Below the pieces are notes generated by a model, which had not been told where the DNA came from, did no database searches, and saw only the letters and a list, made by a program, of their open reading frames with translations. Shown piece by piece: positions 5,477-21,581 of a stretch of 53,102 nucleotides of DNA (position 1 is the stretch's first letter; each line of letters opens with the position of its first letter). Location: the IMG/VR virus record IMGVR_UViG_3300050501_000425; one strand, given 5' to 3'. The position numbers and the translations under genes are program-made. This DNA is from a virus.

Positions 5477-5559
5477 TCCCGTTCTCCTTCTTCCCTGTTC
5501 TGCAAACCGTTGTACAGGAGTGTGTACTGGAGTTCTTTGATCAATTCGTCGAGTCTCAT
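5473..5559 (-). CDS. Small charged protein (28 aa)
   Basis: My translation: MRLDELIKELQYTLLYNGLQNREEGERE. It has an ATGA overlap with the SSB-like start and fills the gap after the exonuclease gene. Confidence 0.35.
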   Translation of the reverse strand: MRLDELIKELQYTLLYNGLQNREEGERE

Positions 5560-5565
5560 CCTCTC

Positions 5566-6411
5566 TCACTTTCCGGGGCATCCTCTGGCCCCTGGCTCCT
5601 TCTGGTCTCTGTTCCACATTGGGCACCAACTGCACAACCGGGTAGGTGAACGTTCAATCTCTTGCCACGCCCCGGATTCCGGCAGTCCTAGCTCCATCAT
5701 CCTAGCCCCGATGGTGTGGATGCGCTTGATGGCGCCCAGGGCATGTTCGCGATCATATTCCGTTGTCCACACCCACATGTCCTTGAGCCAGCCCTGGCGC
5801 CCCAAGGCAACCAAGCCGACTCGCTTGACCGGGCGCCCGGCGTTCTCATGGCCAAGGCCGTAGAGCTGTACCTGGGTGACATACTGCAGCGGCGGCCCGC
5901 TGGTGCGCATCTTCTTCAGGTTGTCCGGCGAAGGGAACTTCCAGTCCAGGACCGTCGATGTTTCGATGTCATACAGGTCGGTGTGCCCGGCCACGATCAG
6001 CGACGGGAACACCTCAAGCTCGGTGAGCCACCGCCTGACCCCGTTGACGCCCTGGAAGTCGTTGACGGCCTGTTCCATCCAGGCATGGATGGCGGTGCCC
6101 ACGGTGGCGGGCCAGGAGTCATTGCCGTGGTGGACGGCGGGCATGTTGGCCATCCGGTAAGCCAGCCGCAGATCACACTCCTGGCCCACCTCCGAGCATC
6201 CCAAGCCCACCTGAAGCGACCGGCGGGCGTTGTTGTTGGCCCAGATGACGATCTCGGTCAGGTCCTCCTTGAGTCCGATGTCGAAGCCACTCATCTCGAA
6301 TCCAGGCATAACGTCAAAATCGGGAAAACAGCCCACATGGTAATCGGCCTGGACCGCCCAATCGCTCTCGATGACCGTTCCGCATTTGCGGCACAGCTTG
6401 GCTCCGGTCAT
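5566..6411 (-). CDS. PD-(D/E)XK exonuclease, Cas4/RecB-like
   Basis: Motifs GTAIHAWMEQ, GHTDLYD, VLDWKF, QVQLY, and terminal Cys cluster CSWCPMW...C. ATG 6411 is ATGA-coupled to the upstream gene. Confidence 0.75.
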   Translation of the reverse strand: MTGAKLCRKCGTVIESDWAVQADYHVGCFPDFDVMPGFEMSGFDIGLKEDLTEIVIWANNNARRSLQVGLGCSEVGQECDLRLAYRMANMPAVHHGNDSWPATVGTAIHAWMEQAVNDFQGVNGVRRWLTELEVFPSLIVAGHTDLYDIETSTVLDWKFPSPDNLKKMRTSGPPLQYVTQVQLYGLGHENAGRPVKRVGLVALGRQGWLKDMWVWTTEYDREHALGAIKRIHTIGARMMELGLPESGAWQEIERSPTRLCSWCPMWNRDQKEPGARGCPGK

Positions 6412-9192: not shown

Positions 9193-9471
9193 CCATGTCA
9201 TGTCAACTCCTTTCCGGTGCCCATGGGAGAGCACCATGACACCGCGCCGTCGGGTCCTGGATCGCCAGGAAACGCTTTGTGTCATGGTGCTCATGGTGAA
9301 CGGCTTCGCTGCCGCTCAGCCCGAACATCAAGCTCGCTTCGCTCGCTTGATGAAGGCGCAGGTACGGCTCCCCGGTCCATGCCGCCCAGAGTGTCGAAGA
9401 AGCAACATGGTGGATCATGACCGTCCTTGCCCGACAAAGACAGAACTAGGAAAACGGGTTTGACGCCTTCG

Positions 9472-9543
9472 TGCCCTCGGCTGGGTTCGAACCAGCGTCC
9501 TCGCCGTGCTCTTGGCGCGCTCATCCCACTGAGCTACGGGGGC
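9472..9543 (-). ncRNA. tRNA-like RNA (72 nt) with a defective anticodon arm
   Basis: Minus sense: GCCCCCG UA GCUC AGUGGGAU GAGC ... GCUGG UUCGAAC CCAGC CGAGGGC A. D and T arms are canonical. The acceptor has one C.A mismatch. The anticodon arm is only a 4-bp stem (CGCC/GGCG) with loop AAGAGCAC and no U33. No CCA is encoded. Confidence 0.6.
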
Positions 9544-10426: not shown

Positions 10427-10558
10427 TTATGACTTGACCAGAAACGTTCCCCAGCCGAACAGGCCTGCGAACAACAGCACGACAAGCGCTTGTTTCGGTT
10501 TCTTCGCGACCAAGAGGGCTATTCCTATCAGGAGTAGCACCCCACTTAGGTATCCCAT
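10427..10558 (-). CDS. Small 2-TM membrane protein (43 aa)
   Basis: MGYLSGVLLLIGIALLVAKKPKQALVVLLFAGLFGWGTFLVKS. TAATG coupling to the vWA gene. Confidence 0.5.
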   Translation of the reverse strand: MGYLSGVLLLIGIALLVAKKPKQALVVLLFAGLFGWGTFLVKS

Positions 10559-11625
10559 TACTTGAGCACCAGCACCTTCGTGCCGACCACCAGGTGGCGG
10601 TTGACCGAGGTGGACTGGACGAAGATGGTGTACTTGTCGTTGAAGTCCGGCGCCACCGACTTGTCGCCGTCGGGCAGCCCGATCATCGCTCGGACCCCGT
10701 CGCCGACGAACACTTTGCTCGTGGCGATCTCCAAGATGGCCAGCTTCTTGTTGCCCTGGATGCGTTCTTTCTTGGACAGCTGGTAGAACACTGAGCCGAC
10801 GGTGAAGCTCCCGGTGGCATGGCGCACGAAGTCCGAGATCTCCCAGACCAGGTGCTTGTCCTTGTTCTCGACACCCTGCCCGCGATCCCGGCGCGGCCTG
10901 GTCACCGGCACCAACACGTAGGCGGAGCTGTCGAGCGGCTTGAGTCCGGCCGCCTTGATGGTGGCGGCATTGACCGCATCGGCGGCCGTGGAGAACAGGG
11001 TCCTGGTGCCGGTCTGGCCGGCGGAGCGCATCGCCATGTAGGTGTCCACGGAGGCGGCCATGGCGACACCGACCTCTTCGACGCCGGTGGCACTGTTGAC
11101 GTCCCAGATGGCGATGTTGCCCACGGGGAAGCCGAAGGACTGGGCGTAGTTCTTGCCGATCGCGTCGGGTACCAGGCAGGCCAGGGTCCACTCGGGGCCC
11201 AGGGATGCCAGCAGGCCCGGAAGGGCGATCTTGTTTTTGGTCCGGGACCTGTTCTCCTGGCCGTCGGTCAGGACGTAGATCAGGAAGCCATGGTCCCCGT
11301 ACTTGACCGGGGTCAACTTGAGGTCCTGTACTGCCAGGGTGGTGGCATCCACCAGCGCGGTCATCCCCGAGGTCTTCACCAGCCCGGCCAGCGACGGCAG
11401 ACGCAGCACGTCCTTGTCGTAGACGATGCAGACCACTTCGTGGTTGAACAGGTAGATGGTGACCCTGGTCTCCTGCTTCAAGTCCTGGCTCATCCTGGCC
11501 AGGTGGGCAACGAGCCCGTCGGTGACCGTGATTACCTGGGACTCCTTGCCCCTCATGGAGTCACTTATGTCGATGCAGAAGGCTACGTGGTTGATGATTC
11601 CCTGATCGATCATCCTACTTGTCAT
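10558..11625 (-). CDS. von Willebrand factor type A (vWA) domain protein
   Basis: MIDAS-type DISDSM near the N-terminus (VAFCIDISDSMRG) with typical alternating beta/alpha pattern. ATG 11625 is preceded by GAGAGGGGA. Confidence 0.7.
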   Translation of the reverse strand: MTSRMIDQGIINHVAFCIDISDSMRGKESQVITVTDGLVAHLARMSQDLKQETRVTIYLFNHEVVCIVYDKDVLRLPSLAGLVKTSGMTALVDATTLAVQDLKLTPVKYGDHGFLIYVLTDGQENRSRTKNKIALPGLLASLGPEWTLACLVPDAIGKNYAQSFGFPVGNIAIWDVNSATGVEEVGVAMAASVDTYMAMRSAGQTGTRTLFSTAADAVNAATIKAAGLKPLDSSAYVLVPVTRPRRDRGQGVENKDKHLVWEISDFVRHATGSFTVGSVFYQLSKKERIQGNKKLAILEIATSKVFVGDGVRAMIGLPDGDKSVAPDFNDKYTIFVQSTSVNRHLVVGTKVLVLK

Positions 11626-11642
11626 CGGTTTCCCCTCTCTCT

Positions 11643-11894
11643 TCAACTCTCGAACCAGATCCCCGTGATGTTTCCTTCAGGGCCTGTACACCACCAGGTG
11701 CTCCTGCCGCCCTCGTCACAGTACTGGTGATGCCGGTGGACGCTACCACCGGACGCCCTGCACGACTTGGCGTCGGCATGCTCACCGGCCGTCGGTGCCG
11801 GACTCTGGCAACCCGGCAGCAGCAAGGACAGCGTTATCCACAAAGACACGGCAAAGGCTGCCCACAGCACTATGGGAACGACTCTTTTGCGCAT
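11643..11894 (-). CDS. Putative lipoprotein (83 aa)
   Basis: Signal peptide plus lipobox: MRKRVVPIVLWAAFAVSLWITLSLLLPGC. Confidence 0.6.
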   Translation of the reverse strand: MRKRVVPIVLWAAFAVSLWITLSLLLPGCQSPAPTAGEHADAKSCRASGGSVHRHHQYCDEGGRSTWWCTGPEGNITGIWFES

Positions 11895-11896
11895 CC

Positions 11897-11998
11897 CTAT
11901 GGCCGCCAGCCGCACACGACTATGGCGATCAGGAAGACCACCAGCCCGGCGCCGCTGATGACCAAAAACTTGGCCTCCCAGTCAAGCCTACTCCACAT
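11897..11998 (-). CDS. Micro membrane ORF (33 aa)
   Basis: MWSRLDWEAKFLVISGAGLVVFLIAIVVCGWRP. RBS AGAGGAGAAG. Confidence 0.5.
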   Translation of the reverse strand: MWSRLDWEAKFLVISGAGLVVFLIAIVVCGWRP

Positions 11999-12197
11999 AG
12001 GACTTCTCCTCTTGTTTGATGCGTGCCGGTGGAACCGTGACAGGAAGCCCTTGATCCCTGTTGTCCCACGGGGCTAGCCCCACCGGCACGACTTTCATGA
12101 CTTCGGGGATGGACGTCACGTCCAGGGCGCCGTGGCCATAATGGATGCCCAGGTCTGGCTCACCTGGCGGACCGAACCTTTACGGTCGCACCCATCG

Positions 12198-12270
12198 CTG
12201 CCAGGGCAGGAGTCGAACCTGCTGCTTCCACACCGTCCCGGACTGCGCAGTCAAGCGGGACATCCTGGCA
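12198..12270 (-). ncRNA. tRNA-sized mimic (73 nt): acceptor plus T arm, with D and anticodon arms replaced by one long hairpin
   Basis: UGCCAGG ... GCAGG UUCGACU CCUGC CCUGGCA G has a perfect 7-bp acceptor and a canonical T arm. Positions 10-36 form GUCCCG-CUU-GACU-GCGC-AGUC-C-CGGGAC. It is followed by a degenerate copy of the GGUGCGA motif (about 12165-12195). Confidence 0.5.
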
Positions 12271-12509
12271 TTGCTCCGTGGTGAGTGTCTGGGCCTCGCC
12301 CAGATGCCCCGAGCCCAAAGCGGGAGCACCCCAAACCCCAGTCCAGGATCCTTGGCCTGGAGATTGCTTTACCACGGATCTTTGGTGAAGAGTCCTTATC
12401 CCATCATTGTCGGACGCTGCTTACGCCAGCCCGACTCCGGAATGATGTCGCGTACATCATCTCCAGTCCTAGAACGCGCGTATCTTCGGCTGTGACTTCG
12501 GACTCTCCG

Positions 12510-12593
12510 TGGGGAGGCAGGATTCGAACCTGCGCAAGGGCAACCACATCATTGTGGATTCGGTACCAACTCCTCATTACGCCTACGTCCCCT
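12510..12593 (-). ncRNA. Aberrant tRNA-like RNA
   Basis: Canonical T arm GCAGG UUCGAAU CCUGC. Acceptor is partial (5 of 7 bp). The anticodon-position hairpin CCAC-AAUGAU-GUGG has a 6-nt loop. I could not draw a clean D arm. Confidence 0.4.
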
Positions 12594-12725
12594 TGACTCG
12601 GTGGCACAGTGAACATCCAGGCGAAGCCCGTGATCCGTTGTCTGGATGCTGGATCCACTTAGTGCCACCGGTTTGTTACTAGCATCGGGGCTACGGTCTC
12701 GACCGCGCCGGGGCGCCGAGCTACG

Positions 12726-12798
12726 CTGACCCAGCAGGACTCGAACCTGCAACCTGATGATTAACAGCCACCTGCGCTGCCGATTGCGCCATGGGTCA
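12726..12798 (-). tRNA. tRNA-Asn (anticodon GUU)
   Basis: Full cloverleaf drawn by hand. Acceptor UGACCCA/UGGGUCA, U8, D arm GCGC-AAUCGGCA-GCGC, anticodon arm GGUGG-CUGUUAA-UCAUC, variable AGGUU, T arm GCAGG-UUCGAGU-CCUGC, discriminator G. No CCA is encoded. Confidence 0.85.
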
Positions 12799-13028
12799 AG
12801 ATGCCGGTGACAGCCCATGACCAAGACTGCCACCGGCGTACGACTGTTTCGGGGACCGCCAGTCGCCAGCGGTCTGTGAGCCCGGATAGGAACGGGCACC
12901 CCGGCGGGAGATGAGTCTTTGGTTGTGGCCATGCAGCTTTGCGTCCCCATGGCCACCATGGACGTCCCAGTCCAATGGGAGTCTTAGTGATTAAGCCTGC
13001 GAAGCAGGTCTGGGATGAACGAAGTGAA

Positions 13029-13172
13029 GACCTCAGAGTTCAAGGGCTGTCTCGGAAATGGGAGCGGACTCGAACCGCCAACCTTCCGGTCTCAACCGGA
13101 CGCTCTACCAATTGAGCTACCCCGATGAATTGTTGGTATCGGGAAGTATCCGAAACATTCGCACCTGAGATC
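13029..13172 (-). ncRNA. Y RNA-like module F (normal-order tRNA-like cloverleaf inside the conserved stem)
   Basis: GAUCUCA-GGUGCGA-AUGUUU-CGGAUACUUC ... GCUC-AAUUGGUA-GAGC G UCCGG-UUGAGAC-CCGGA AGGUU GGCGG-UUCGAGU-CCGCU ... CUUGAACUC-UGAGGUC. The closing stem is 7 bp with one G.U. Confidence 0.7.
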
Positions 13173-13630
13173 GTAGATCTTTGGGCTGGTTGGGTGCCAG
13201 AAGTTCTGACCAGCATCCTGGTCACTAAGTGAGATAAGGACCATCATTCTGGCCACTAAGTGCTTGGGTGGGGACGCCGGAACCTTTCCCTAGGGAGGTC
13301 CGTTCTCTTTTTCCATCTTCTACTAGCGCGCATGATGCGCCTGTTCCTTTGCGCCAGCACGTGTTCGTCAGGGGGCGACCGCCTGGGCGTCTGGCATCCC
13401 CACGTCTTTGTGCACCGTTTTTGGGCCACCTACGGTGCCAGAGGTGCCGTTGGCACGAGAGTACCGCCCGTCTTCACCGGCGAGGATGAAGTCTTTGGTG
13501 GACCACGGAAACCCGCAAGAGTCAGCCGCACGAAACGACTGCTTTTGTCTAACCCGTGGCCCTTTGCCGCCCCCCTATGAATGGGCAGCGTTCCCAATCG
13601 CATTGCCTTCTACAGCAATGAACTTTTTGT

Positions 13631-13781
13631 GATTGCAGAGTTCAAGATTGTCTCGGGCTTGTTCAAAAAGACCGCTGCTCGTACCAGCTGAGCTACAGAA
13701 GCCGATGGCCCCCAGGGGGACTTGAACCCCCGACCTGCGGTTTGTGAATTCGAAGTATCCGAAACTGTCGCACCTGCAATC
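13631..13781 (-). ncRNA. Y RNA-like module E (permuted tRNA-like domain)
   Basis: GAUUGCA-GGUGCGA-CAGUUU-CGGAUACUUC-GAAUUCACAA-ACCGC-AGGUC-GGGGG-UUCAAGU-CCCCC-UGGGGGC-CAUCG-GCUUCUG-UA-GCUC-AGCUGGUAC-GAGC-A-GCGGU-...-CUUGAACUC-UGCAAUC. The closing stem is a perfect 7 bp. The acceptor is loop-closed. Confidence 0.75.
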
Positions 13782-14141
13782 TGGATCCCGACCATCCGGC
13801 AGTCGGTGTCCAAGACCATGCCCCACGAGGGAACACGGTGGGTGATTCTTGCTCTGGCCACACCATTCGCCACCAGTCGCCGCGATTGGATAGGACCGGT
13901 GTGGCCAGAAGTCTTGGTGGATGCCCCCGGCATTCCTGAACGGGGGCATCCGTTTCCCCACCTGACAAGGAGGGAAGCTTGTGGGCGGGGGTGTCAGTAC
14001 TGAGCACTTTCGTGAGTCTGCTTCCAGGCGACCCCTGCGACATCGCACACCGAGGTGTGCGCGGCGACCGTGGCCATCCATGCCAGGTCTTTCACCTGGA
14101 CCCCCATTTCCAGCCGCCCTGTCAGGAGCCGGAAGTTTGTT

Positions 14142-14281
14142 GATTCCCGAGTTCAGGGGTGGCGCGGAAATTTTAGCGCTCTACCACTTGAGCTACAGCC
14201 CGAAGAGTCGGGCCGTCAGGATTCGAACCTGAAACCTCTCGTTCCCAAAACGAAGTAACCGTGCCGATCGCACCGGGAATC
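14142..14281 (-). ncRNA. Y RNA-like module D (permuted tRNA-like domain)
   Basis: GAUUCCC-GGUGCGA-UCGGCA-CGGUUACUUC-GU-UUUGG-GAACGAGAGGUU-UCAGG-UUCGAAU-CCUGA-CGGCCCG-ACUCUU-CGGGCUG-UA-GCUC-AAGUGGUA-GAGC-G-CUAAA-...-CUGAACUC-GGGAAUC. Both 7-bp stems are fully paired. Confidence 0.75.
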
Positions 14282-14335
14282 ACAGATTCCTTCGCGCATA
14301 AGGCGTAGCCGTTGCGTCGGGAATCAAAGCTTTGT

Positions 14336-14462
14336 GGTGTCGGAGTTCATGGTTGTCGCGGGGAGCCCCTAGCCATAGGGCAGTCATCACCACGGGGGTG
14401 ACGGGTGGATTCGAACCATCAATCGTTGTCACGAAGTAACCGCAACATTCGCACCCGACATC
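14336..14462 (-). ncRNA. Y RNA-like module C (permuted tRNA-like domain)
   Basis: GAUGUCG-GGUGCGA-AUGUUG-CGGUUACUUC-...-GAUGG-UUCGAAU-CCACC-CGUCACC-CCCGU-GGUGAUG-ACU-GCCC-UAUGGCUAG-GGGC-...-AUGAACUC-CGACACC. The closing stem is 6 of 7 bp. Confidence 0.7.
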
Positions 14463-14474
14463 AAAAGTTATTAT

Positions 14475-14580
14475 CTGCCACGAGTTCAGGGTTCATTCGG
14501 AATGGTGTTGCTTTCCGGGGTTCTCACATCCCGGGTATATCCACTGGTGAGAAGTATCCGAACAATTCGCACCGTGGCGC
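14475..14580 (-). ncRNA. Y RNA-like module B (no tRNA-like domain)
   Basis: GCGCCAC-GGUGCGA-AUUGUU-CGGAUACUUC ... CUGAACUC-GUGGCAG. The closing stem is only 5 bp. There is an internal hairpin CCGGG/CCCGG and no T-loop box. Confidence 0.55.
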
Positions 14581-14626
14581 GAAAGTCAATGTAGTTGTCA
14601 ACAAACAGCAGGGTCATGAGCGCCCG

Positions 14627-14718
14627 TGGAGCCCCCGGAGTTCAACATGGTCACGGGCTTATTCTTCGGTTCCGTGAAAGAGACAGATGAAGTAACCGTA
14701 ACCTTCGCACCCGGGGGC
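14627..14718 (-). ncRNA. Y RNA-like module A (no tRNA-like domain, 3' CCA encoded)
   Basis: GCCCCCG-GGUGCGA-AGGUUA-CGGUUACUUC ... UUGAACUC-CGGGGGC-U-CCA. The closing stem is 7-8 bp. Internal hairpin is CACGG/CCGUG. Confidence 0.6.
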
Positions 14719-14753
14719 GCCATGTCGCTCAGCTGCTTACGAAAGAAAGCATG

Positions 14754-14924
14754 TCATACGACGGACGTGATGTCAAGTCGGTTTTCTCCGTGCTGCGGGC
14801 AGGAGCACGGTGCCTTACACCACTTGCAGGTCTGGCGGCACAGCTTGTGCAGGTCGGGATCCTCGTGCTCATGCTGGCAGGCCGTGGATATGTAGATGTG
14901 CTTAGGGCCGGGGAGGGTCTTCAT
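14754..14924 (-). CDS. Small Cys/His-rich (zinc-binding type) protein (56 aa)
   Basis: My translation: MKTLPGPKHIYISTACQHEHEDPDLHKLCRQTCKWCKAPCSCPQHGENRLDITSVV. This is the last coding sequence before the RNA array. Confidence 0.6.
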   Translation of the reverse strand: MKTLPGPKHIYISTACQHEHEDPDLHKLCRQTCKWCKAPCSCPQHGENRLDITSVV

Positions 14925-15129
14925 GATCTTGTTCTACCTTCCGTAGGAACCATTCCCGGGGCATGCAGGCCACCATTGTGAACCATCCCATACCAGTGAA
15001 CCCGGACAGGACATACCGCATGTCATCGACCACAAATCCGTACAGTGACATCGCGGCGCACCCGGTGGCCATGGCCCAAAAGATGATGCCCAGCCTGCGC
15101 ACAGCGACCCTCCTGGTCATGGGTCTCAT
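14902..15129 (-). CDS. Membrane protein (75 aa)
   Basis: ORF track. Contains GIIFWAMATGCAAMSLYGFVV and GMGWFTMVACM. Start is ATGA-coupled. Confidence 0.6.
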   Translation of the reverse strand: MRPMTRRVAVRRLGIIFWAMATGCAAMSLYGFVVDDMRYVLSGFTGMGWFTMVACMPREWFLRKVEQDHEDPPRP

Positions 15130-15335
15130 CAGTACTCACCCCCGCCGGGATAATCGGTGAAGTCGGGCTGTTTGGGCAGCGTAAGGGGGTAGGGCTGGCC
15201 CGCGTCGGCCATCAGCCGGTAGTCGTCCAGGAAGTCATCCAGGATATCCCAGGGCAGTGACCCCCGGTCATAGGTGTCCCGGCGCTCCTTGATGATCGCC
15301 TCCACCACATCCCCGCGCATCGGCTGGTGCCTCAT
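15129..15335 (-). CDS. Hypothetical protein (68 aa)
   Basis: ORF track. ATGA coupling at both ends. Confidence 0.65.
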   Translation of the reverse strand: MRHQPMRGDVVEAIIKERRDTYDRGSLPWDILDDFLDDYRLMADAGQPYPLTLPKQPDFTDYPGGGEY

Positions 15336-15559
15336 GGCCTGCCCTGTCGGTCCCTGAGGTAGTCCATGACCATCGCGGCCGTGGTGCTCCTGGAGAACGT
15401 GATATTGCCACCATCGGGGAACACGATGGCGAAACGGTAGTCATGCTGGGGCAATGTCGTCTCGAAGAGGGCCTGCGCCTTCTCTTCCCCGAATATCCGG
15501 CGAGCCTCCTGTGCCACATCGACTATGTTCACAGTGGCAAGTACTTGATCCTCGATCAT
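15332..15559 (-). CDS. Hypothetical protein (75 aa)
   Basis: Internal ATG 15559 is preceded by GGGGAGAGAAA. Product begins MIEDQVLATVNIVDVAQEARRIF... Confidence 0.6.
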   Translation of the reverse strand: MIEDQVLATVNIVDVAQEARRIFGEEKAQALFETTLPQHDYRFAIVFPDGGNITFSRSTTAAMVMDYLRDRQGRP

Positions 15560-15785
15560 TTTCTCTCCCCTTCCTCTTGGTCCAGAGTATCCAGTTGGCC
15601 CCATAGATGCCCAGGTATACGGGTGCCCAGGCCACAAAGCCCAGCTGAGAGGTGCACAACCCGTAGGTGACCGCGAACACCTGGCCCAGCAAGCAGATCA
15701 CCCAGCCGACACGCCGATAGTTCCCGGCCAGGATCAGCCCGACCGCCGGGATGCCTTGCACGATAAATGATCCCCATTGCTCCAT
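15441..15785 (-). CDS. Multi-TM membrane protein with a questionable 3' end
   Basis: ATG 15785 follows GGGGAGGAG. Product MEQWGSFIVQGIPAVGLILAGNYRRVGWVICLLGQVFAVTYGL...WILW. The last roughly 40 codons overlap gene 15332..15559 and look non-coding. Confidence 0.5.
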   Translation of the reverse strand: MEQWGSFIVQGIPAVGLILAGNYRRVGWVICLLGQVFAVTYGLCTSQLGFVAWAPVYLGIYGANWILWTKRKGRENDRGSSTCHCEHSRCGTGGSPDIRGREGAGPLRDDIAPA

Positions 15786-15848
15786 AATCTCCTCCCCATC
15801 CATGTGAAAACGGGCGGCGACCATTGTCACCGCCCGCCCCCGTACTCC

Positions 15849-15998
15849 TTACATTCTTTCGGGCATCTCCAGTGGCATCAGAAGGGCCGCCAGGATGCCC
15901 CCGGCACCGGCCAGCATCCAGGCCGGTCGTTGCACCAGCAAGCCCAGGCACAGGATCACGCCGCAGATGGCCAGCACCACGATCTTGAGTGAACTCAT
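15849..15998 (-). CDS. Small 2-TM membrane protein (49 aa)
   Basis: MSSLKIVVLAICGVILCLGLLVQRPAWMLAGAGGILAALLMPLEMPERM. ATGA-coupled to the Ro60 stop. Confidence 0.55.
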   Translation of the reverse strand: MSSLKIVVLAICGVILCLGLLVQRPAWMLAGAGGILAALLMPLEMPERM

Positions 15999-17566
15999 CA
16001 GAACGGCCACTGCCCGGCGGCACGGCGCTCCAGCACCGGCAGCAACTTGAACGCCTGGTCAGTCAACCCGCCGATGGTGATGCGGGTCGGGGTTCCCGAC
16101 TCCATGTGCCCCACCTTGTACCCGGCCAAGTTGAACGTGATCACCGGGATGTGGGCCGGGACTGCCGCTGCCACATCACGATAGGTGTGATAGTTGGCCT
16201 GCTCGTCGGTGAGGATGACCACCCGATCGTGCGCCCTGAAATTGGTGCTCACCGCCGCCTCGGTGGCCGTACCCCCGTTCTGGAAGTAGCCACGGCGGAA
16301 CGCCTCCAGCATCACCAGCAGCGATGCCCCCCTGGCCAGCGGGAACACCTTGGAGTAGTTGGAGTACGAGACCACGTCGGCGTGCTCACACCGCTGCGAA
16401 AGCGCCAGCCCGAAGATGGCCGCCGCGTCCCAGCGCCGCAGTCCGCTCTTGTCACTCATGCTGTCGGCCATCGAGCCCGAGGTGTCGATCAGGATCAGGG
16501 TGCGACCGGCGAACTGCGGGATGTTGTTCAGCGACGCCTGGAGCCCCTGCTCAAGTGGCAGGTGCCAGCGCACGTTGGACACAGCCCGGAAGGCCGACAA
16601 GAACCGCATCGGCAACTGACGGGATCGGGCCACTTGCTCCGGGTCACCGAGGCGATCAGCCACCAAGGCGTAGGCGTTGTGGCCCACCCCGGCCTCATCG
16701 AAGTTGCGCAGGTTGCGCAGCAGGGCCATGTAGCCCATGGTCGGGATAAGCGCCTCCCACAGATCCTTCTTCGGAATCTTGGAACCAACCAGGGACAGCA
16801 CGTCCTCCCACGTCATCCCGGCAGCCCGAAGGGTTCCGGGGTCCAGGAACATGTGCTGCCCGTAGTCCTTGGCGGCTGCGTCACGAAGGAAGGCATTCTT
16901 GTGGATCATGGTCAGTGACGACGGGATGCCCTCGCGGCCGTGGCGCCGGTCGATCAGATGCTTGAACAGCACATCCTGGCCCAGCTTGTCCGGGGACGCA
17001 TGGGTCAGCTCAAGCACATCACCGAAGCGGACACCATGAGACGCCGTGTCGTACTTGAGGGTGTTGTACTCGTTGTAAAGACGCGTCGCGGCATCAGCGA
17101 TCCCGCGCTTGATCGGCTTGGGAATCTGCTGGCCTGGATAGGCAGCCTTCCAGTAGCCGATCGCCTCACCGGGCTCGTCGGCACGTGCCAGCACCGAGTT
17201 GACGATCCGACGGCCACCAGGAAGGTTGGACTTCACCATGGCGCAGGCGGCCTCGATCGCGCCCACCAGGGAGGCGGTGCGCATGTTGGCCTCGCCGCGA
17301 AGCCACGGTAGGAAGCGCCCCATCCATTCGGGATCGGTGCGGGCCACCTCGTGAACCAGCGTCTTGAAGCGGGCGTCACGGGCAACCCCGGTCTCATAGA
17401 AGGTGTCCATGCCGACGAAGTTGCTCACCGCCAGCAGGAACAGCTCACCCTTGGCGTCACGGGTGAACCCGGGCGCCCGGTTTCCGGTACGCGCCAACGG
17501 GTCCGGGGTGGACACGATGGGCTGATTGATCGGGAAGCCCTTGTTGGGCTTGTTGAAACGGCTCAT
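15998..17566 (-). CDS. rsr: Ro60-related protein (TROVE domain plus C-terminal vWA domain)
   Basis: 522 aa. The HEAT-like TROVE region has MGYMALLRNLRNF and RQLPMRFLSAFRAV. The C-terminal vWA has MIDAS LILIDTSGSMAD. RBS is GAGAGGAA. Confidence 0.85.
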   Translation of the reverse strand: MSRFNKPNKGFPINQPIVSTPDPLARTGNRAPGFTRDAKGELFLLAVSNFVGMDTFYETGVARDARFKTLVHEVARTDPEWMGRFLPWLRGEANMRTASLVGAIEAACAMVKSNLPGGRRIVNSVLARADEPGEAIGYWKAAYPGQQIPKPIKRGIADAATRLYNEYNTLKYDTASHGVRFGDVLELTHASPDKLGQDVLFKHLIDRRHGREGIPSSLTMIHKNAFLRDAAAKDYGQHMFLDPGTLRAAGMTWEDVLSLVGSKIPKKDLWEALIPTMGYMALLRNLRNFDEAGVGHNAYALVADRLGDPEQVARSRQLPMRFLSAFRAVSNVRWHLPLEQGLQASLNNIPQFAGRTLILIDTSGSMADSMSDKSGLRRWDAAAIFGLALSQRCEHADVVSYSNYSKVFPLARGASLLVMLEAFRRGYFQNGGTATEAAVSTNFRAHDRVVILTDEQANYHTYRDVAAAVPAHIPVITFNLAGYKVGHMESGTPTRITIGGLTDQAFKLLPVLERRAAGQWPF

Positions 17567-18325: not shown

Positions 18326-19189
18326 TCATTCAACCACAAATACCCCCTGCCCCTGACGGCCTTCGACCACGCCGGTGGCCTTGAGGATCAGGATGGCTGA
18401 GCGTACGGATCCGTAGCTGGCCTCGAACTCTTCTCGCAGGGCGCTGGTGCTGGGAAGTTTGCCGTCGGGATAGGCGCCGGAGGCGATCCGCTCGCGCAAG
18501 GTGTCCACGATGATCAGATACTTGAAGTCCGTCATAGGCAACACAGTAGACCATGGTGCTAATGTGAGCACATGGGGCTCGATCGGACCGAGAAGATCTT
18601 CACTTTCGGGCCACCCTCTCTCCAGCCTCCCAAGAAGGGTGCGATAGGAAACATGACACCTATGATCCCTTGACCATTGCGCAACTGTTTTCTTCTCACC
18701 ATTTATCGTTACCCAGCGATTGGTGGTCTTGTTGTTCATGTTTTCACTGCGCGTAACCCAGCGACAATTCTGTGGCCCATAGTTGCCCGTAGTGTCTATT
18801 CGGTCAATCTGTAGACCATCGACGAATCCGTTGGCTAGTGCCCATTTCCTGAATTCCTCAAAGCTCTCTCGCCATTGGCGGATGACCTTTATGCCTCGGG
18901 CGCCGTAATATTTATATGCGCTGCTTGAGGGGGTGTGGCATCTTCCTTTCATGCTTGCCCATGCCTTATACAGGGGAGACCAGCGCCCATTGGCGGCATC
19001 CCCATGCTTCCTTTGTCTCATGGCCGCGAGATCCCGCTGTAGGCAGCCACAGGACTTACTCTTCCCGGACCTGAGCGCATGTCGGGCTACCGCGCGTCTT
19101 GTGCCACAGACGCATATGCATTCCGAGTGGCGTGGCCTTCCCGTGGCTAGTCCCACCACGGTCCATCGGCCAAATTCGGAAGCGACCAT
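18326..19189 (-). CDS. Nuclease-associated/HNH-type DNA-binding module fused in frame to a GntR-type winged HTH
   Basis: YKAWASMKGRCHTPSSSAYKYYGARGIKV...LQIDRIDTTGNYGPQNCRWVTRSENMNNKT, followed without a stop by MTDFKYLIIVDTLRERIASGAYPDGKLPSTSALREEFEASYGSVRSAILILKATGVV (GntR HTH). ATG 19189 was chosen as the start. Confidence 0.6.
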   Translation of the reverse strand: MVASEFGRWTVVGLATGRPRHSECICVCGTRRAVARHALRSGKSKSCGCLQRDLAAMRQRKHGDAANGRWSPLYKAWASMKGRCHTPSSSAYKYYGARGIKVIRQWRESFEEFRKWALANGFVDGLQIDRIDTTGNYGPQNCRWVTRSENMNNKTTNRWVTINGEKKTVAQWSRDHRCHVSYRTLLGRLERGWPESEDLLGPIEPHVLTLAPWSTVLPMTDFKYLIIVDTLRERIASGAYPDGKLPSTSALREEFEASYGSVRSAILILKATGVVEGRQGQGVFVVE

Positions 19190-19259
19190 GGGCGAAGTAT
19201 ACAAGCAGTAAATTGCATCGTAGACTATGACATCTAGGATGGGGATGGTCAGGTTGGGC

Positions 19260-21581
19260 ATGTCGCTGAAGCAGCGGGTTGCGGCGATGCCCCGTGCCCA
19301 GAGGATGGACTTCCTGCAGTCCCTGGACCCCGCCATCCTGGACATGATCGCCAGGGAGGAATGGTTCTGGGTGGCCCGCCCGGAACAGATGCCGCCCAAG
19401 GGCGACTGGTCCATCTGCCTGATGCTGGCGGGCCGGGGCTTCGGCAAGACGCGCTCGGGGGCCGAGTGGATCGTGCAACGGACCCTGGATCATCCCTATG
19501 ACTCCTCTGGGTTTCCCACCGAACGCCTGATCATGGCCTACAACATTTCTGACGCCGTGGCCTCATGCGCCGAGGGTCCCTCGGGGGTGCTGCGGGTGTT
19601 GCAGCGCATGGGATTTTCCGAGCTGGGAAAGTCCCGCCGGGTCGATGACCCCACCAAGATGTACACCTTCACCAAAAGCCCCAAGCCTTATGTGCGCTTG
19701 CTCGAGACCGGCTCGGTCATCCACTTCACCGGCGCCACAGTGGACGCGGCCCGGTCCAAGAACCTGGCCGATGTCTGGTGCGTGGCCGAAGGTGAGCCAG
19801 TCCTGACCGAGCGCGGCATGGTGGCCATAGAGCGGGTGCTCCCGGGTGACAGAGTTTGGACGCAGACGGGATTCAAGGAGGTTCTGCAATCCGGGCGTAC
19901 CGCTGAGGGCAGGGAGGTCTTGCGGATTGTCACCACCGAGGGGGAGCTTCGAGTAACCCCGGACCATGTGGTGTGGGCCAATGGCGGCTGGATCCGGGCC
20001 GACCGGCTTGAGGCTGGCGATAGTATGGCTACATGTCTGCCTCAAATGGACCTGTGCCCAGCGAAGAGCCAGCCTATCAGCGATGGGACAGGGAGTCCTG
20101 GTTCTTCAACAAGCGCAAGGGATACTACTACAGCCGAGACGGGTTCCTTCTCCACCGAGCCGTCTGGATCGCTTTGCACGGACCGATTCCCGAGGGATTC
20201 GATGTCCATCACCGGGATGGGAAACGGTGGAATTGCGACCCAGCAAACCTTGAGCTATTGCCTCATGGAGAGCACATGCGTCTCACGTGGCAGCTGCGTA
20301 CCGACGCCGACAAATATGACAGCTCCGGCCGGTCCCAGCGGTCCAGTGAGGGATTGCGGCGCATGTGGGCCAACCGGCAGCCCCGGGCAGTCCTTTGTGC
20401 CGAGTGTGGCAATGAGTACCTGTCCACCGGAATGCGGGCCAAATGGTGCTCGGACGCATGCCGGAAAGCGGGATCGGCCAGGCTTTCGCGGAACAAGCGT
20501 GCTCAGCGTAATCAGGGAACACCGGCGAGCTGATGTCTACGATTTGACGATCGCCGATGCCCATCATTTCTTCGCGGGGTCGGCGCTTGTCAAGATCCAC
20601 AACTGCGACGAGCCCATAAAATGGGCCAATCCCGAGGAAACCTGGCGCGAGGGCATCCGACCGGCACTTCGGGCCGACATCCCCGGGGACAAACCCAGGG
20701 CGCTGGTGACCACCACCCCCAAACCGATCCTGTTGCTCAAGAACTGGGTGTCCGAACCCCGGCGGTGGAAGGTCGTCATCATCCGGGGCAGCACCTTCGA
20801 CAACATGATCAACCTGTCTGAGGATGCCGTCGAGGAGCTGCGGGAAACCTATGAGGGCACCGCCCTGGGCCGCCAGGAGCTGTACGGCGAGCTTCTCGAT
20901 GATGTGTCCGGCGCCCTGTTCAGCTTCTCCGTCATCCATGCCAACCGGGTGGAGATCGGCCCGGAGAAGGTGGCCCACCGCACCGTCGGGGTGGATCCCG
21001 GCCTGACCGGTGATGAGGACGGCGACGAGATGGGTGTCATCGTGGCCTGCCGGGACCACAAGGACCATGCCTATGTGATCGCCGATGAGACCACGAAGCT
21101 GGCCGGACGCGATGCGGCACTGCATGCCTGGCATGTCTATGCCCGCTATGGCGCCGACACCCTGGTCTATGAGTCCAACCTGGGCAAGGCCTGGATGCAC
21201 CAGGTGTTCACCGACGCCTTCAGGGAACTTCAGCGCTCCGGCTTATTCCCCACTGAAGTCATCAACCCTCCGCTCGTGCCCGTCTTTTCAAATCAGGGGA
21301 AAAAGCTGCGGGCTGAGCCCGTGGCCATGCGCTATTCGCAGGGGCGAGTGCATCACATCGGCACCTTCGACAAGCTCGAGACCCAGATGCTCACCTTCGA
21401 TCCTTTGTCGTCCAAGGCGTCCCCGGACCGCCTGGATGCCCTCGTCCATGCGGTCCGGCATCTGATGGATGGTGAGCGCAAGCGCTCCCGGATCCTGTCG
21501 CCTTTGGGTCTGCCGGTACCCGAACTCGGCTACAACCCGGTGGGCACCATGCGGACCATGGGTGAATTCGGGATCGGATGA
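19260..21581 (+). CDS. terL: Terminase large subunit, interrupted by an intein
   Basis: N-terminus ...EEWFWVARPEQ..., Walker A LAGRGFGKT, Walker B region ADVW|CDE restored after intein removal. The C-terminal nuclease region has GVDPG...DEMG. ATG 19260 is preferred within ORF 19227..21581. Confidence 0.85.
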   Translation: MSLKQRVAAMPRAQRMDFLQSLDPAILDMIAREEWFWVARPEQMPPKGDWSICLMLAGRGFGKTRSGAEWIVQRTLDHPYDSSGFPTERLIMAYNISDAVASCAEGPSGVLRVLQRMGFSELGKSRRVDDPTKMYTFTKSPKPYVRLLETGSVIHFTGATVDAARSKNLADVWCVAEGEPVLTERGMVAIERVLPGDRVWTQTGFKEVLQSGRTAEGREVLRIVTTEGELRVTPDHVVWANGGWIRADRLEAGDSMATCLPQMDLCPAKSQPISDGTGSPGSSTSARDTTTAETGSFSTEPSGSLCTDRFPRDSMSITGMGNGGIATQQTLSYCLMESTCVSRGSCVPTPTNMTAPAGPSGPVRDCGACGPTGSPGQSFVPSVAMSTCPPECGPNGARTHAGKRDRPGFRGTSVLSVIREHRRADVYDLTIADAHHFFAGSALVKIHNCDEPIKWANPEETWREGIRPALRADIPGDKPRALVTTTPKPILLLKNWVSEPRRWKVVIIRGSTFDNMINLSEDAVEELRETYEGTALGRQELYGELLDDVSGALFSFSVIHANRVEIGPEKVAHRTVGVDPGLTGDEDGDEMGVIVACRDHKDHAYVIADETTKLAGRDAALHAWHVYARYGADTLVYESNLGKAWMHQVFTDAFRELQRSGLFPTEVINPPLVPVFSNQGKKLRAEPVAMRYSQGRVHHIGTFDKLETQMLTFDPLSSKASPDRLDALVHAVRHLMDGERKRSRILSPLGLPVPELGYNPVGTMRTMGEFGIG
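19779..20603 (+). mobile_element. Intein (275 codons) in the TerL Walker B region
   Basis: Starts CVAEGEPVLT, contains TPDHVVW, and ends ALVKIHN followed by +1 Cys (CDEPIKW). Confidence 0.8.
20033..20533 (+). CDS. HNH homing endonuclease ORF nested out of frame inside the intein
   Basis: +2 frame relative to terL. Contains AVWIALHGPIPEGFDVHHRDGKRWNCDPANLELLPHGEHMRL plus CAECG...CSDAC. Confidence 0.75.
   Translation: MSASNGPVPSEEPAYQRWDRESWFFNKRKGYYYSRDGFLLHRAVWIALHGPIPEGFDVHHRDGKRWNCDPANLELLPHGEHMRLTWQLRTDADKYDSSGRSQRSSEGLRRMWANRQPRAVLCAECGNEYLSTGMRAKWCSDACRKAGSARLSRNKRAQRNQGTPAS

What the first reader, a model, noticed from the sequence alone, without database searches (positions are those of the whole stretch)
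12016..17566. Phage-borne Ro60 gene followed by a 2.7-kb protein-free RNA gene array
Gene 15998..17566 has the Ro60/Rsr architecture: a TROVE-like region with MGYMALLRNLRNF and LPMRFLSAFRAV, then a vWA domain with MIDAS DTSGSM. After six small genes on the same strand, convincing coding potential stops at 14754 and resumes only at 11998. That interval carries T-loop boxes (GGTTCGAnnCC), many perfect stems, and recurring RNA motifs. The six-frame ORFs there overlap each other in all frames and give low-complexity products. In bacteria, Y RNAs are encoded next to rsr and often mimic tRNA. This locus fits that logic, but with at least 6 Y-like modules, 1 tRNA, at least 3 tRNA mimics, and more than 1 kb of unassigned structured RNA. 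I have not seen that many described.
Basis: partly seen in the sequence, partly recalled or inferred. Interest (0 to 1): 0.92.

Follow-up and report, generated by a model that had tools for sequence, protein, structure and literature searches.

The report
Phage Ro60 gene with six-Y-RNA array
A roughly 53-kb soil phage carries a Ro60 RNA-binding protein gene followed by a 2.75-kb stretch with no protein genes that encodes six different Y RNAs (Ro60's partner RNAs, several of them shaped like tRNA), one real tRNA and several unknown structured RNAs; this is the largest Y RNA set I could find described, though it extends a known system.

Summary
Gene 15998-17566(-) is a true Ro60 homologue. It has a TROVE domain, a vWA domain with a DTSGS MIDAS motif, and profile matches to solved Ro60 structures.

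The window is a tailed phage. The interval 14753-11999(-) shows no codon periodicity, whereas the flanking genes show it strongly.

The interval holds exactly six Y RNA modules of 88-151 nt. Each has the pattern 5' stem-GGUGCGA-N7-GGWUACUUC ... UGAACUC-stem 3'. A motif scan (0.04 expected by chance) and a covariance model both find these six. They fall into five structural classes:
- a short hairpin;
- a 'CUUCUCACC' class;
- a T-arm plus two hairpins;
- two YrlA-like modules (T arm, acceptor-like hairpin, D arm);
- an almost complete cloverleaf with a capped acceptor stem.

Ten sister phage genomes have 4-7 such modules in the same place, with abundant compensatory base changes. The interval also contains tRNA-Asn(GUU), two T-arm relics, and conserved structured blocks that match no Rfam family.

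Phage Ro60 with Y RNAs is already known: Chen 2014 reported 22 phages, and Thermus phage phiLo has two Y-like RNAs. The novelty here is the size and diversity of the array and the extra RNAs. Arrays of 3-6 also turn up in other metagenomic phages and in some Actinomycetota chromosomes. I therefore call this a new variant of a known kind, of moderate to high interest.

The parts
15998..17566 (-). Phage Ro60 homologue (TROVE ring domain plus C-terminal vWA domain with MIDAS motif DTSGS)
   Evidence: Pfam TROVE 6e-19; VWA_2 21.7 bits. PHROG 850 2e-45. Profile hits to solved Ro60 structures 9kop, 1yvp and 2nvo. More than 6,000 homologues, with 52-55 kb sister contigs at 60-88% identity.
14754..16010 (-). 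Five or six small ORFs between Ro60 and the RNA array (53, 129/101, 68, 75 and 56 aa); function unknown. In sister phages this slot often holds a HAD_PNKP-type phosphatase, which the window lacks.
   Evidence: ORF list. Protein-level conservation in relatives. L006 147-aa protein matches HAD_PNKP at 7.8e-46; no Pfam hits for the window ORFs.
14631..14718 (-). Y1: short Y RNA (88 nt). It has the Ro-binding stem plus a small terminal hairpin and no tRNA-like part.
   Evidence: Motif. R1 47.9 bits. Alignment A9 of 10 short-class modules has 10 of 19 pairs with compensatory changes.
14477..14578 (-). Y2: 102-nt Y RNA of the 'CUUCUCACCA ... UGAGAAC' class
   Evidence: Motif. R1 28.3 bits. Alignment A8 has 16 of 25 pairs with compensatory changes.
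14338..14460 (-). Y3: 123-nt Y RNA with a T-arm (GGUUCGAAUCC) followed by two hairpins
   Evidence: Motif. R1 64.7 bits. Alignment A7 has 14 of 29 pairs with compensatory changes.
14141..14282 (-). Y4: YrlA-like Y RNA (142 nt): T arm, acceptor-like hairpin, D arm (GUAGCUCAAGUGGUAGAGC)
   Evidence: Rfam YrlA 36.6 bits, E = 1.3e-5, below the gathering score of 69. R1 137.5 bits. A4 covariation: 98.4% of cells paired, 23 of 27 pairs compensatory.
13909..13951 (-). Perfect 11-bp hairpin GGAUGCCCCCG/CGGGGGCAUCC followed by ACCAAGACUU. It sits in a conserved spacer (14140-13782) that folds better than shuffled sequence.
   Evidence: Sequence. Tail motif. Spacer folding z-score -4.66. 84-93% identity to L008 and L072.
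13631..13781 (-). Y5: second YrlA-like Y RNA (151 nt)
   Evidence: Rfam YrlA full-length match, 35 bits, E = 3.7e-5. R1 100 bits. Included in A4.
13488..13630 (-). Block A: conserved structured RNA of unknown class, ending ...CCGUGGUCC-ACCAAAGACUUC
   Evidence: 81-88% identity to L011 and L074. Alignment A2 has 13 of 41 predicted pairs with compensatory changes. Tail motif.
13260..13407 (-). Block B: structured RNA of unknown class closed by the long-range helix CGUGGGGAUGCC / GGCGUCCCCAC. The window copy lacks an internal domain of about 85 nt that relatives have (195-234 nt).
   Evidence: The helix covaries (GGGG/CCCC to GAGG/CCUC in L010, L071 and L073). No Rfam hit. In IMG/VR it occurs only in a sister genome.
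13029..13172 (-). Y6: Y RNA with a near-complete cloverleaf (loop-capped acceptor-like hairpin, D arm, anticodon-like arm with a 6-nt loop, T arm)
   Evidence: Rfam tRNA 45.2 bits on the inner part; ARAGORN reports a 2-nt 'anticodon'. A5: 95.1% of cells paired, 20 of 42 pairs compensatory. R2 161.8 bits.
12725..12798 (-). tRNA-Asn (GUU), the only canonical tRNA in the array
   Evidence: ARAGORN. Rfam tRNA 63 bits.
12509..12576 (-). tRNA-like relic with an intact T arm. Its 3' half is homologous to roughly 100-nt tRNA-like elements of relatives.
   Evidence: Rfam tRNA 17.2 bits, E = 5.8. Homology to L008 13234-13334 and L074 11224-11323, which score 42 bits as tRNA.
12200..12270 (-). tRNA-like element: 6-bp acceptor-like stem GCCAGG/CCUGGC, a long hairpin, and a T arm GCAGG-UUCGACU-CCUGC
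   Evidence: Weak tRNA-Sec hit, 17 bits. 88-92% conserved in L006, L011 and L072. Consensus fold A6.
12001..12116 (-). Conserved non-coding block just upstream of the next small ORF (ATG at 11998). It may be a leader or promoter region.
   Evidence: 87% identity to L011, 76-77% to L010 and L074. No codon periodicity.
10558..11646 (-). Conserved vWA-domain protein of about 350 aa that follows the RNA array in every sister genome
   Evidence: Pfam VWA_2 8.7e-6. PHROG 26613 2e-81. Synteny.

Best explanation
This is a phage Ro60-Y RNA system with an expanded Y RNA array.

**What the sequence shows**
- The phage encodes its own ring-shaped Ro60 protein.
- About 1.3 kb downstream, on the same strand, lies a gene-free RNA cluster. 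It holds six paralogous Y RNAs, one tRNA-Asn, two tRNA-like relics, and at least two further conserved structured RNAs.
- All six Y RNAs share one module. The 5' and 3' ends pair into a stem that covaries. Next comes a conserved internal loop or bulge, GGUGCGA opposite UUGAACUC. This matches the metazoan Ro60-contact sequence GGUCCGA at 6 of 7 positions and contains the CGA(A) core used by phage phiLo Ro60.
- A second stem (NNNN-CGG / CCG-NNNN) and a conserved UACUUC follow.
- Beyond this shared module each Y RNA carries a different 'effector' domain. Three are tRNA mimics of two different topologies.

**Inferred, not shown**
- The cluster is transcribed with the Ro60 operon as one precursor and cut into individual RNAs. 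This is how the M. smegmatis YrlA/YrlB pair and the D. radiodurans Yrn2-tRNA-Asp-Yrn1 cluster are made.
- Each Y RNA binds phage Ro60 through the shared stem.
- The different effector domains tether or gate Ro60 towards different host partners. Candidates are PNPase, as in the D. radiodurans, Salmonella and phiLo complexes, and tRNA-recognising enzymes such as RNase P, TruB, Dus and the CCA-adding enzyme.
- The outcome would be phage control over host structured-RNA or tRNA turnover and repair during infection.
For: - Ro60 identity.
- Six modules, against a chance expectation of 0.04. Independent recovery by covariance model R1, with no extra hits in the window.
- Covariation in every class: A4 has 23 of 27 pairs compensatory and 98.4% of cells paired, against 35-52% in the slid controls. 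A5 has 20 of 42 pairs compensatory.
- Same strand and within 4 kb of Ro60, which is the criterion of Chen 2014 (PMC4201824).
- Non-coding.
- The arrangement is conserved in ten sister genomes, with 4-7 modules each.
- Spacers between modules are as short as 16 nt. No sigma-70-like promoter or intrinsic terminator lies inside the array on the minus strand. Both fit a single precursor.
- Precedents: polycistronic Y RNA/tRNA precursors and RNase P/CCA processing of a YrlA (PMC4201824). Phage phiLo Ro60 binds two adjacent Y-like RNAs through a CGAA motif and forms a complex with host PNPase (PMC12135203).
- A PNKP-type phosphatase gene sits between Ro60 and the array in several sister phages. An RNA ligase and a nucleotidyltransferase lie near the Ro gene of Gordonia phage Neville. 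Both link the locus to RNA end-healing and repair.
Against: - There is no expression or binding data for any of these RNAs.
- The two YrlA-like modules fall below Rfam's YrlA gathering score.
- The literal YrlA motif GNCGAAN0-1G is not met. The modules read UGCGA[A/U/C], and two of the six lack the second A of CGAA.
- The terminal stem was part of my selection rule, so its 100% pairing is partly circular. The inner helices were not selected for pairing.
- The promoter scan covers only sigma-70 consensus sites, and actinobacterial promoters are poorly matched by it.
- The partners of the effector domains are guesses by analogy.
- The host is unknown. An actinobacterial host is inferred from the distribution of Ro60 homologues and of the Y motif.
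Confidence: 0.8

Rival explanations
1. The interval is a decaying tRNA gene cluster. Related phages carry real tRNAs here. On this reading the 'modules' are pseudo-tRNAs and tRNA fragments with no function of their own, left over from a larger array.
For: - Sister genomes carry 1-4 canonical tRNAs (Gly, Pro, His, Asn, Lys, Phe) in the distal half of the same gap. The window keeps only tRNA-Asn.
- Two T-arm elements in the window (12509-12576 and 12200-12270) look like relics.
- Block B has lost an internal domain in the window.
- Ro-like genes of cultured actinophages sit inside large tRNA arrays.
Against: - The six modules share a non-tRNA stem with conserved GGUGCGA/UUGAACUC. This stem is kept, with compensatory changes, across 35 or more sequences from phages and bacteria.
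- Three classes (Y1, Y2 and part of Y3) have little or no tRNA resemblance.
- Decay may explain the distal 0.8 kb. It does not explain the Y modules.
Confidence: 0.1
2. The Y RNAs, and above all the tRNA mimics, act mainly without Ro60. They would be decoys or sponges for host tRNA-directed nucleases and defence systems, or for tRNA-modifying and processing enzymes. Ro60 would serve only to stabilise them.
For: - Three modules mimic tRNA in two topologies, and the anticodon-like loop of Y6 varies freely among relatives. That fits a shape mimic, not a decoder.
- Several non-Y elements end in helix-ACCA-like tails.
- tRNA genes and, in relatives, a PNKP-type phosphatase share the locus.
- From my own knowledge, not tested here: phage tRNAs are thought to counter tRNA-cleaving defences.
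Against: - Every module keeps the Ro-binding stem at high conservation. That argues Ro60 binding is central and not incidental.
- In the characterised systems Y RNAs need Ro60 for stability and act with it (PMC4201824; PMC12135203).
- No tRNA-targeting defence or counter-defence was tested.
Confidence: 0.2
3. The interval encodes small or overlapping proteins, and the RNA-like features are incidental to a GC-rich coding region.
For: - Gene callers placed ORFs of 98-193 aa in the corresponding gap of five relatives.
- The window has ORFs of 136 and 168 aa there.
Against: - No 3-base periodicity of substitutions (p = 0.31 and 0.86), against p = 1e-101 and 1e-24 in the flanking genes.
- The called ORFs lie on different strands and frames in different genomes. 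They share only short segments that mirror the nucleotide conservation, and they have no Pfam hit.
- The window ORFs overlap Y5 and tRNA-Asn.
Confidence: 0.03

Closest known systems
Thermus phage phiLo Ro60 with Yrl1/Yrl2 (Nucleic Acids Res 2025, PMC12135203; PDB 9kop/9l5y)
   Same: - A phage-encoded Ro60 with adjacent Y-like RNAs on the same strand.
- Recognition through a stem-bulge-stem with a CGA(A) core.
- It is the best solved-structure match of the window protein.
   Different: - phiLo has two Y-like RNAs upstream of the gene. This window has six, 1.3-3.0 kb downstream, in five structural classes, together with a tRNA and other structured RNAs.
- Protein identity is only about 25%.
Bacterial YrlA/YrlB (Salmonella, M. 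smegmatis; Chen et al. 2014, PMC4201824; Rfam RF02553)
   Same: - Y4 and Y5 have the YrlA order T arm, acceptor-like hairpin, D arm inside a Ro-binding stem.
- They lie within 4 kb of Ro60 on the same strand.
- Short hairpin-type partners (Y1) resemble YrlB.
- Precursors shared with tRNA are known.
   Different: - Scores are below the Rfam gathering threshold.
- The 5' motif is GGUGCGA, not GNCGAAN0-1G.
- Both strands of the Ro-binding helix are conserved here. In YrlA only the 5' strand is recognisable.
- There are six paralogues here, not two.
Deinococcus radiodurans Yrn1/Yrn2 and metazoan Y RNAs
   Same: - Conserved bulged helix, GGUCCGA/UUGAC-type, on both strands.
- Y6 has the D arm, then a stem, then the T arm, which is the order described for Yrn1.
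- Several paralogues per genome (two to four in vertebrates).
   Different: - Y6 carries a full anticodon-like arm and a loop-capped acceptor hairpin.
- No sequence homology beyond the motif.
- The context is a phage.
Ro-like genes of cultured actinophages (Streptomyces GiJojo/BRock, Gordonia Neville, Arthrobacter Atuin)
   Same: - About 44% identical Ro60.
- My model finds 2-3 unannotated Y RNAs beside each gene.
- They are associated with tRNA genes.
   Different: - Those phages have 20-40 tRNAs and only 2-3 Y RNAs, with the variant motif GAUGCG(U/A)AG.
- This phage group reverses the ratio: 4-7 Y RNAs and 1-4 tRNAs.

Membership tests
Ro60 / TROVE protein family | TROVE (HEAT-repeat ring) domain | tested here: met
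   Pfam PF05731 69 bits against a cut-off of 23, although only residues 251-337 align. PHROG 850 covers residues 25-512. The profile matches 9kop, 1yvp and 2nvo over most of their length.
Ro60 / TROVE protein family | C-terminal vWA domain with a MIDAS motif (DxSxS) | tested here: met
   DTSGS at residues 361-365. D361, S363 and S365 are invariant in 31 homologues. Pfam VWA_2 scores 21.7 bits, just below its cut-off of 27.
Ro60 / TROVE protein family | Binds Y RNA on the outer ring surface and misfolded RNA in the central cavity | not testable with these tools
   Needs gel-shift assays, RIP-seq or a structure.
Y RNA (general) | 80-150-nt RNA whose 5' and 3' ends pair into a long stem carrying a conserved bulged Ro60-binding site | tested here: met
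   Six modules of 88-151 nt. GGUGCGA/UUGAACUC is invariant while the flanking stems covary. The RNA ends themselves are inferred.
Y RNA (general) | Encoded next to the Ro60 gene on the same strand | tested here: met
   1.3-3.0 kb downstream on the same strand. Conserved in 10 sister genomes.
Y RNA (general) | Bound by Ro60 and dependent on it for stable accumulation | not testable with these tools
   No expression or binding data are available.
YrlA (Rfam RF02553) | Score at or above the Rfam gathering threshold (69 bits) | tested here: not met
   36.6 bits (14166-14245) and 35 bits (13647-13765). Related loci also produce no YrlA hit at the gathering score.
YrlA (Rfam RF02553) | tRNA-like domain in the order T arm, acceptor-like stem-loop, D arm | tested here: met
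   Y4 and Y5. In 35 sequences the T arm, acceptor-like hairpin and D arm are 95-100% paired, and 15 of their 17 pairs show compensatory changes.
YrlA (Rfam RF02553) | 5' motif GNCGAAN0-1G | tested here: not met
   The modules read GGUGCGA followed by A, U or C. There is a U where the motif has G, and Y4 and Y5 have CGAU and CGAC. The core CGA is present.
tRNA | Cloverleaf with a 7-nt anticodon loop, recognised by tRNA finders | tested here: met
   Met for 12725-12798 (tRNA-Asn GUU). Not met for the inner part of Y6 (6-nt loop, capped acceptor) or for the relics at 12509-12576 and 12200-12270.

The most novel reading that the evidence does not exclude
The phage carries an RNA-only toolkit. Six Y RNAs with a common Ro60 handle and six different heads would each dock the phage Ro60 onto a different host machine, such as PNPase, RNase P, tRNA-modifying enzymes, the CCA-adding enzyme or RNA-repair enzymes. 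Previously unknown structured RNAs would act alongside them: block A, block B, and hairpins ending in ACCA-like tails that may be processed or CCA-tagged like tRNA. Together they would reprogramme host tRNA and structured-RNA turnover, or blunt tRNA-targeting defences. If so, this would be the first case where Y RNA diversification within one genome maps onto distinct effectors.
Probability: 0.25. Interest if true: 0.85.

Novelty: new variant of a known kind. Interest (0 to 1): 0.6.

Why it matters
Y RNAs are thought to be modular adaptors, with one end holding Ro60 and the other choosing the partner. Each well-studied organism offers only one to four of them, so that idea has been hard to test.

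This phage group packs 4-7 Y RNAs into 2 kb. The Ro60 handles are nearly identical and the heads differ sharply, including two different ways of mimicking tRNA. It is a compact natural experiment: one protein, six adaptors, in a small genome that should be open to genetics.

The work also shows three further things.
- Rfam's YrlA model misses the actinobacterial and phage type of Y RNA.
- Cultured actinophages carry unannotated Y RNAs, some annotated as small proteins or as a tRNA.
- Multi-Y arrays are common in soil phage metagenomes.

The extra conserved RNAs (blocks A and B, and the ACCA-tailed hairpins) are candidates for new RNA classes linked to Ro60 biology.

Tried and rejected
- **Megablast of the locus against GenBank phages.** No relative was found, only a 52-nt tRNA-like match.
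- **Rfam at gathering score.** It reports only tRNA in the window and the sister loci. In permissive mode nothing beyond two sub-threshold YrlA hits and chance matches appears in 11.6-15.0 kb. GOLLD, ROOL, ribozymes, riboswitches, tmRNA, RNase P and 6S RNA are therefore not supported for the unassigned blocks.
- **Sigma-70 promoter and intrinsic terminator scan.** It found no promoter-like site. The two minus-strand terminator-like sites lie below 11990, outside the array. This is uninformative for actinobacterial promoters.
- **Coding hypothesis.** Rejected by the periodicity test and by the lack of protein conservation.
- **A PNKP-type phosphatase in the window.** Absent. The slot holds unrelated small ORFs.
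- **First pattern for block B.** It had the wrong spacing and found nothing. The corrected pattern found only a sister genome.
- **A fixed-length pattern for the CCACCAAAGACUUC tail.** It was too rigid.
- **Literature access.** The supplementary tables of Chen 2014 and the Sim and Wolin 2018 review are not held. I could not check whether multi-copy arrays were tabulated there.
- **Structure prediction.** I did not run it, because sequence and profile evidence for Ro60 was already sufficient.

Full report
**1. What is there**

The window is a tailed phage. It encodes a terminase (19227-21581+), portal, major head protein, head-tail adaptor and tape measure on the plus strand. A primase-polymerase and an exonuclease lie on the minus strand.

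Megablast finds no close relative among GenBank phages. Many metagenomic contigs of 52-55 kb encode Ro60 proteins 60-88% identical to the window's, and the ten I fetched also share its gene order. The window is therefore probably a complete or near-complete genome of an uncultured phage group.

The host is probably an actinobacterium. The best named Ro60 relatives and the Y RNA motif occur mainly in Actinomycetota and their phages.

**2. The protein**

ORF 15998-17566(-) encodes 522 aa.
- It matches Pfam TROVE at 6e-19, and VWA_2 just below its threshold.
- It matches PHROG 850 along its whole length.
- As a single sequence it matches the solved Thermus phage phiLo Ro60.
- A profile of 31 homologues also reaches human and Xenopus Ro60 and D. 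radiodurans Rsr.
- The MIDAS residues D361, S363 and S365 are invariant.

This is a Ro60 homologue. 'Ro-like RNA binding protein' is already a routine annotation in actinophages. The nearest cultured examples are about 44% identical.

**3. The interval is non-coding**

I aligned the window to ten sister genomes and counted substitutions by phase.
- Ro60: 857 / 711 / 1638, p = 1e-101.
- The downstream VWA gene: p = 1e-24.
- The whole interval 14753-11999: 607 / 555 / 584, p = 0.31.
- The interval with Y modules and the tRNA masked: p = 0.86.

ORFs that gene callers placed in this gap in relatives differ in strand and frame. They are not conserved as proteins and have no Pfam match.

The last small ORF ends at 14754 and is conserved as a protein in two relatives. 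A ribosome-binding site and an ATG sit at 11998.

**4. Six Y RNAs**

The pattern GGTGCGA-N7-GGWTACTTC occurs six times, against 0.04 expected, all on the Ro60 strand. Each occurrence is followed by TGAACTC and by a 3' flank complementary to the 5' flank. This gives modules at:
- Y1, 14718-14631
- Y2, 14578-14477
- Y3, 14460-14338
- Y4, 14282-14141
- Y5, 13781-13631
- Y6, 13172-13029

Every module has the same handle:
- a variable terminal stem of 5-9 bp;
- a conserved internal loop, GGUGCGA opposite UUGAACUC;
- a second stem, N4-5-CGG / CCG-N4-5;
- then UACUUC.

GGUGCGA differs at one position from the GGUCCGA that Xenopus Ro60 contacts. It also contains the CGA(A) core that the phiLo study mutated (PMC4201824; PMC12135203).

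The heads differ.
- Y1 is a short hairpin.
- Y2 has a CUUCUCACC...UGAGAAC element and a GC hairpin.
- Y3 has a T arm and two hairpins.
- Y4 and Y5 have the YrlA order: T arm, acceptor-like hairpin, D arm.
- Y6 has a loop-capped acceptor-like hairpin, D arm, anticodon-like arm and T arm. That is a cloverleaf whose chain enters and leaves between the T arm and the acceptor.

**5. Evidence that these are real RNAs**

The sister genomes carry 4-7 modules in the same place, by motif scan and by a covariance model built from the YrlA-like class (R1). R1 finds exactly the six modules in the window.

For the YrlA-like class (35 sequences from phages and metagenomic loci):
- 98.4% of cells are paired;
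- 23 of 27 pairs show compensatory changes;
- none of 500 shuffles reaches these values;
- sliding the partner columns drops pairing to 35-52%.

For the cloverleaf class (9 sequences), 95.1% of cells are paired and 20 of 42 pairs are compensatory. The capping hairpin changes from CCCGAU/AUCGGG to CCCCCU/AGGGGG, CCCUGA/UCAGGG and CUGAAU/AUUCAG. The three other classes also covary.

One caveat applies. Complementarity of the terminal stem was one of my selection rules, so only the inner helices are an unbiased test.

The anticodon-like loop of Y6 varies from 4 to 9 nt, with no conserved triplet. This fits a shape mimic, not a decoder.

**6. The rest of the interval**

- tRNA-Asn(GUU) at 12798-12725 is canonical.
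- Sister genomes carry one to four real tRNAs (Gly, Pro, His, Asn, Lys, Phe) in the distal half of the gap.
- The window instead has two T-arm elements, at 12576-12509 and 12270-12200, which look like relics or unusual tRNA-like RNAs.

Two blocks in the gap between Y5 and Y6 are conserved and predicted to be structured.
- Block A (13630-13488) has 13 of 41 predicted pairs with compensatory changes in five sequences.
- Block B (13407-13260) is closed by a 12-14-bp long-range helix. The helix covaries G:C to A:U in three relatives. In nine relatives block B is 195-239 nt long, and the window copy lacks an internal domain.

Neither block matches any Rfam family. In IMG/VR, block B occurs only in a sister genome.

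The spacer between Y4 and Y5 folds far better than shuffled sequence (z = -4.66), as does 13028-12799 (z = -3.59). The Y5-Y6 spacer taken whole and the distal 0.7 kb do not (z = -0.92 and -1.96).

Several of these elements end with a helix followed by CAC(C)AAAGACUU. Five of the six matches in the window lie in the array, all on its strand. The sequence reads like a discriminator plus CCA followed by a shared trailer. I cannot explain it.

**7. How it probably works**

Shown: the parts and their conservation.

Inferred:
- The array is probably transcribed with the Ro60 operon, which starts at a small GntR-type gene divergent from the terminase gene. Spacers are as short as 16 nt and there are no internal consensus signals. 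M. smegmatis YrlA/YrlB and D. radiodurans Yrn2-tRNA-Asp-Yrn1 are made from single precursors.
- Each RNA is then expected to bind the phage Ro60 through the common handle.
- By analogy with D. radiodurans, Salmonella and phage phiLo, the heads would tether Ro60 to host proteins such as PNPase. The tRNA-like heads would attract tRNA-recognising enzymes; M. smegmatis YrlA is cut by RNase P and receives CCA.
- In several sister phages a PNKP-type phosphatase gene lies between Ro60 and the array. This points to RNA end-healing and repair as part of the same function. The window lacks that gene.

**8. Comparison with what is known**

- Phage Ro60 has been noted for two decades (my own knowledge).
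- YrlA-like RNAs were reported near Ro60 in 254 bacteria and 22 phages, but only the best hit per genome was recorded.
- phiLo has two Y-like RNAs with biochemical support.
- Characterised bacteria have 'at least two' Y RNAs, and vertebrates have two to four.

I found no paper describing an array of this size.

The array is not unique in sequence databases.
- Other IMG/VR contigs of 20-135 kb carry 4-6 modules.
- Planomonospora and Streptosporangium chromosomes carry 4, and Lentzea carries 3.
- Cultured actinophages carry 2-3 unannotated ones.
- The cloverleaf class scores above 100 bits only in this phage group and two other metagenomic loci.

**9. Verdict**

This is a known kind of system, phage Ro60 plus Y RNAs, in an expanded and diversified form. 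It comes with additional unclassified structured RNAs. I rate it a new variant of a known kind with interest 0.6. A specialist would want to follow it up, but it does not overturn anything.

Noticed in passing
window 9471-9543 (-): A further tRNA-like element lies outside the array. It has a good T arm (GGTTCGAACCC) and D arm, but ARAGORN reports a 2-nt 'anticodon' from an odd loop. Sister genomes have a canonical tRNA-Asn or tRNA-Lys at a comparable distance downstream of the VWA gene.
   Followed up: partly
L002 (Gordonia phage Neville) 5506-5636 and 5728-5877; L001 (Streptomyces phage GiJojo) 5412-5558 and 5763-5911; L003 (Arthrobacter phage Atuin) 7899-8331; L004 (Streptomyces phage BRock) 5422-5558 and 5776-5911: Cultured actinophages with 'Ro-like' genes carry 2-3 unannotated Y RNAs next to the gene, with the variant motif GAUGCG(U/A)AG. 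In Neville they overlap the annotated hypothetical CDSs gp88-gp90. In GiJojo one overlaps the annotated tRNA-Arg(cct). These look like annotation errors.
   Followed up: partly
window 13919, 13500, 13270 (-) and homologous sites in L006, L011, L072, L075, L009: The tail CAC(C)(C)AAAGACUU recurs directly after the closing helices of non-Y structured elements. It reads as discriminator plus CCA followed by a common trailer. It could be a processing signal or an acceptor-end mimic.
   Followed up: partly
L006 10005-10448; also L008, L009, L072: A PNKP-type HAD phosphatase gene (Pfam HAD_PNKP, 7.8e-46) sits between Ro60 and the Y RNA array in several sister phages but is replaced by unrelated small ORFs in the window. 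Gordonia phage Neville has an RNA ligase and a nucleotidyltransferase a few genes upstream of its Ro gene.
   Followed up: partly
window 10558-11646 (-): A vWA-domain protein of about 350 aa (PHROG 26613, function unknown) follows the RNA array in every sister genome. Streptomyces phage GiJojo has a 'CobT-like' gene about 3 kb downstream of its Ro gene; CobT proteins usually carry a vWA domain, which I did not check here. A second vWA protein may therefore be linked to phage Ro60.
   Followed up: no
window 19227-21581 (+) and sister loci: The terminase large subunit is 784 aa here and 764-860 aa in some sisters, with weak intein or LAGLIDADG hits. It is 471-500 aa in others. This suggests an intein inserted in the terminase of part of the group.
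   Followed up: no
window 18326-19447 (-): The long mechanical ORF carries a GntR-type helix-turn-helix only in its last roughly 65 residues. Sister genomes call a 69-aa GntR-like gene at this position, at the head of the Ro60 operon and divergent from the terminase gene. It is a possible regulator of the Ro60/Y RNA operon.
   Followed up: no
L157 (Planomonospora sp.) 5146-5809; L143 (Streptosporangium oxazolinicum) 367-947: Two actinobacterial genome contigs (the loci were not checked for Ro60 genes or prophage content) carry tandem arrays of four Y RNA modules with the same GGUGCGA handle. Multi-Y arrays are therefore not restricted to phages.
   Followed up: partly
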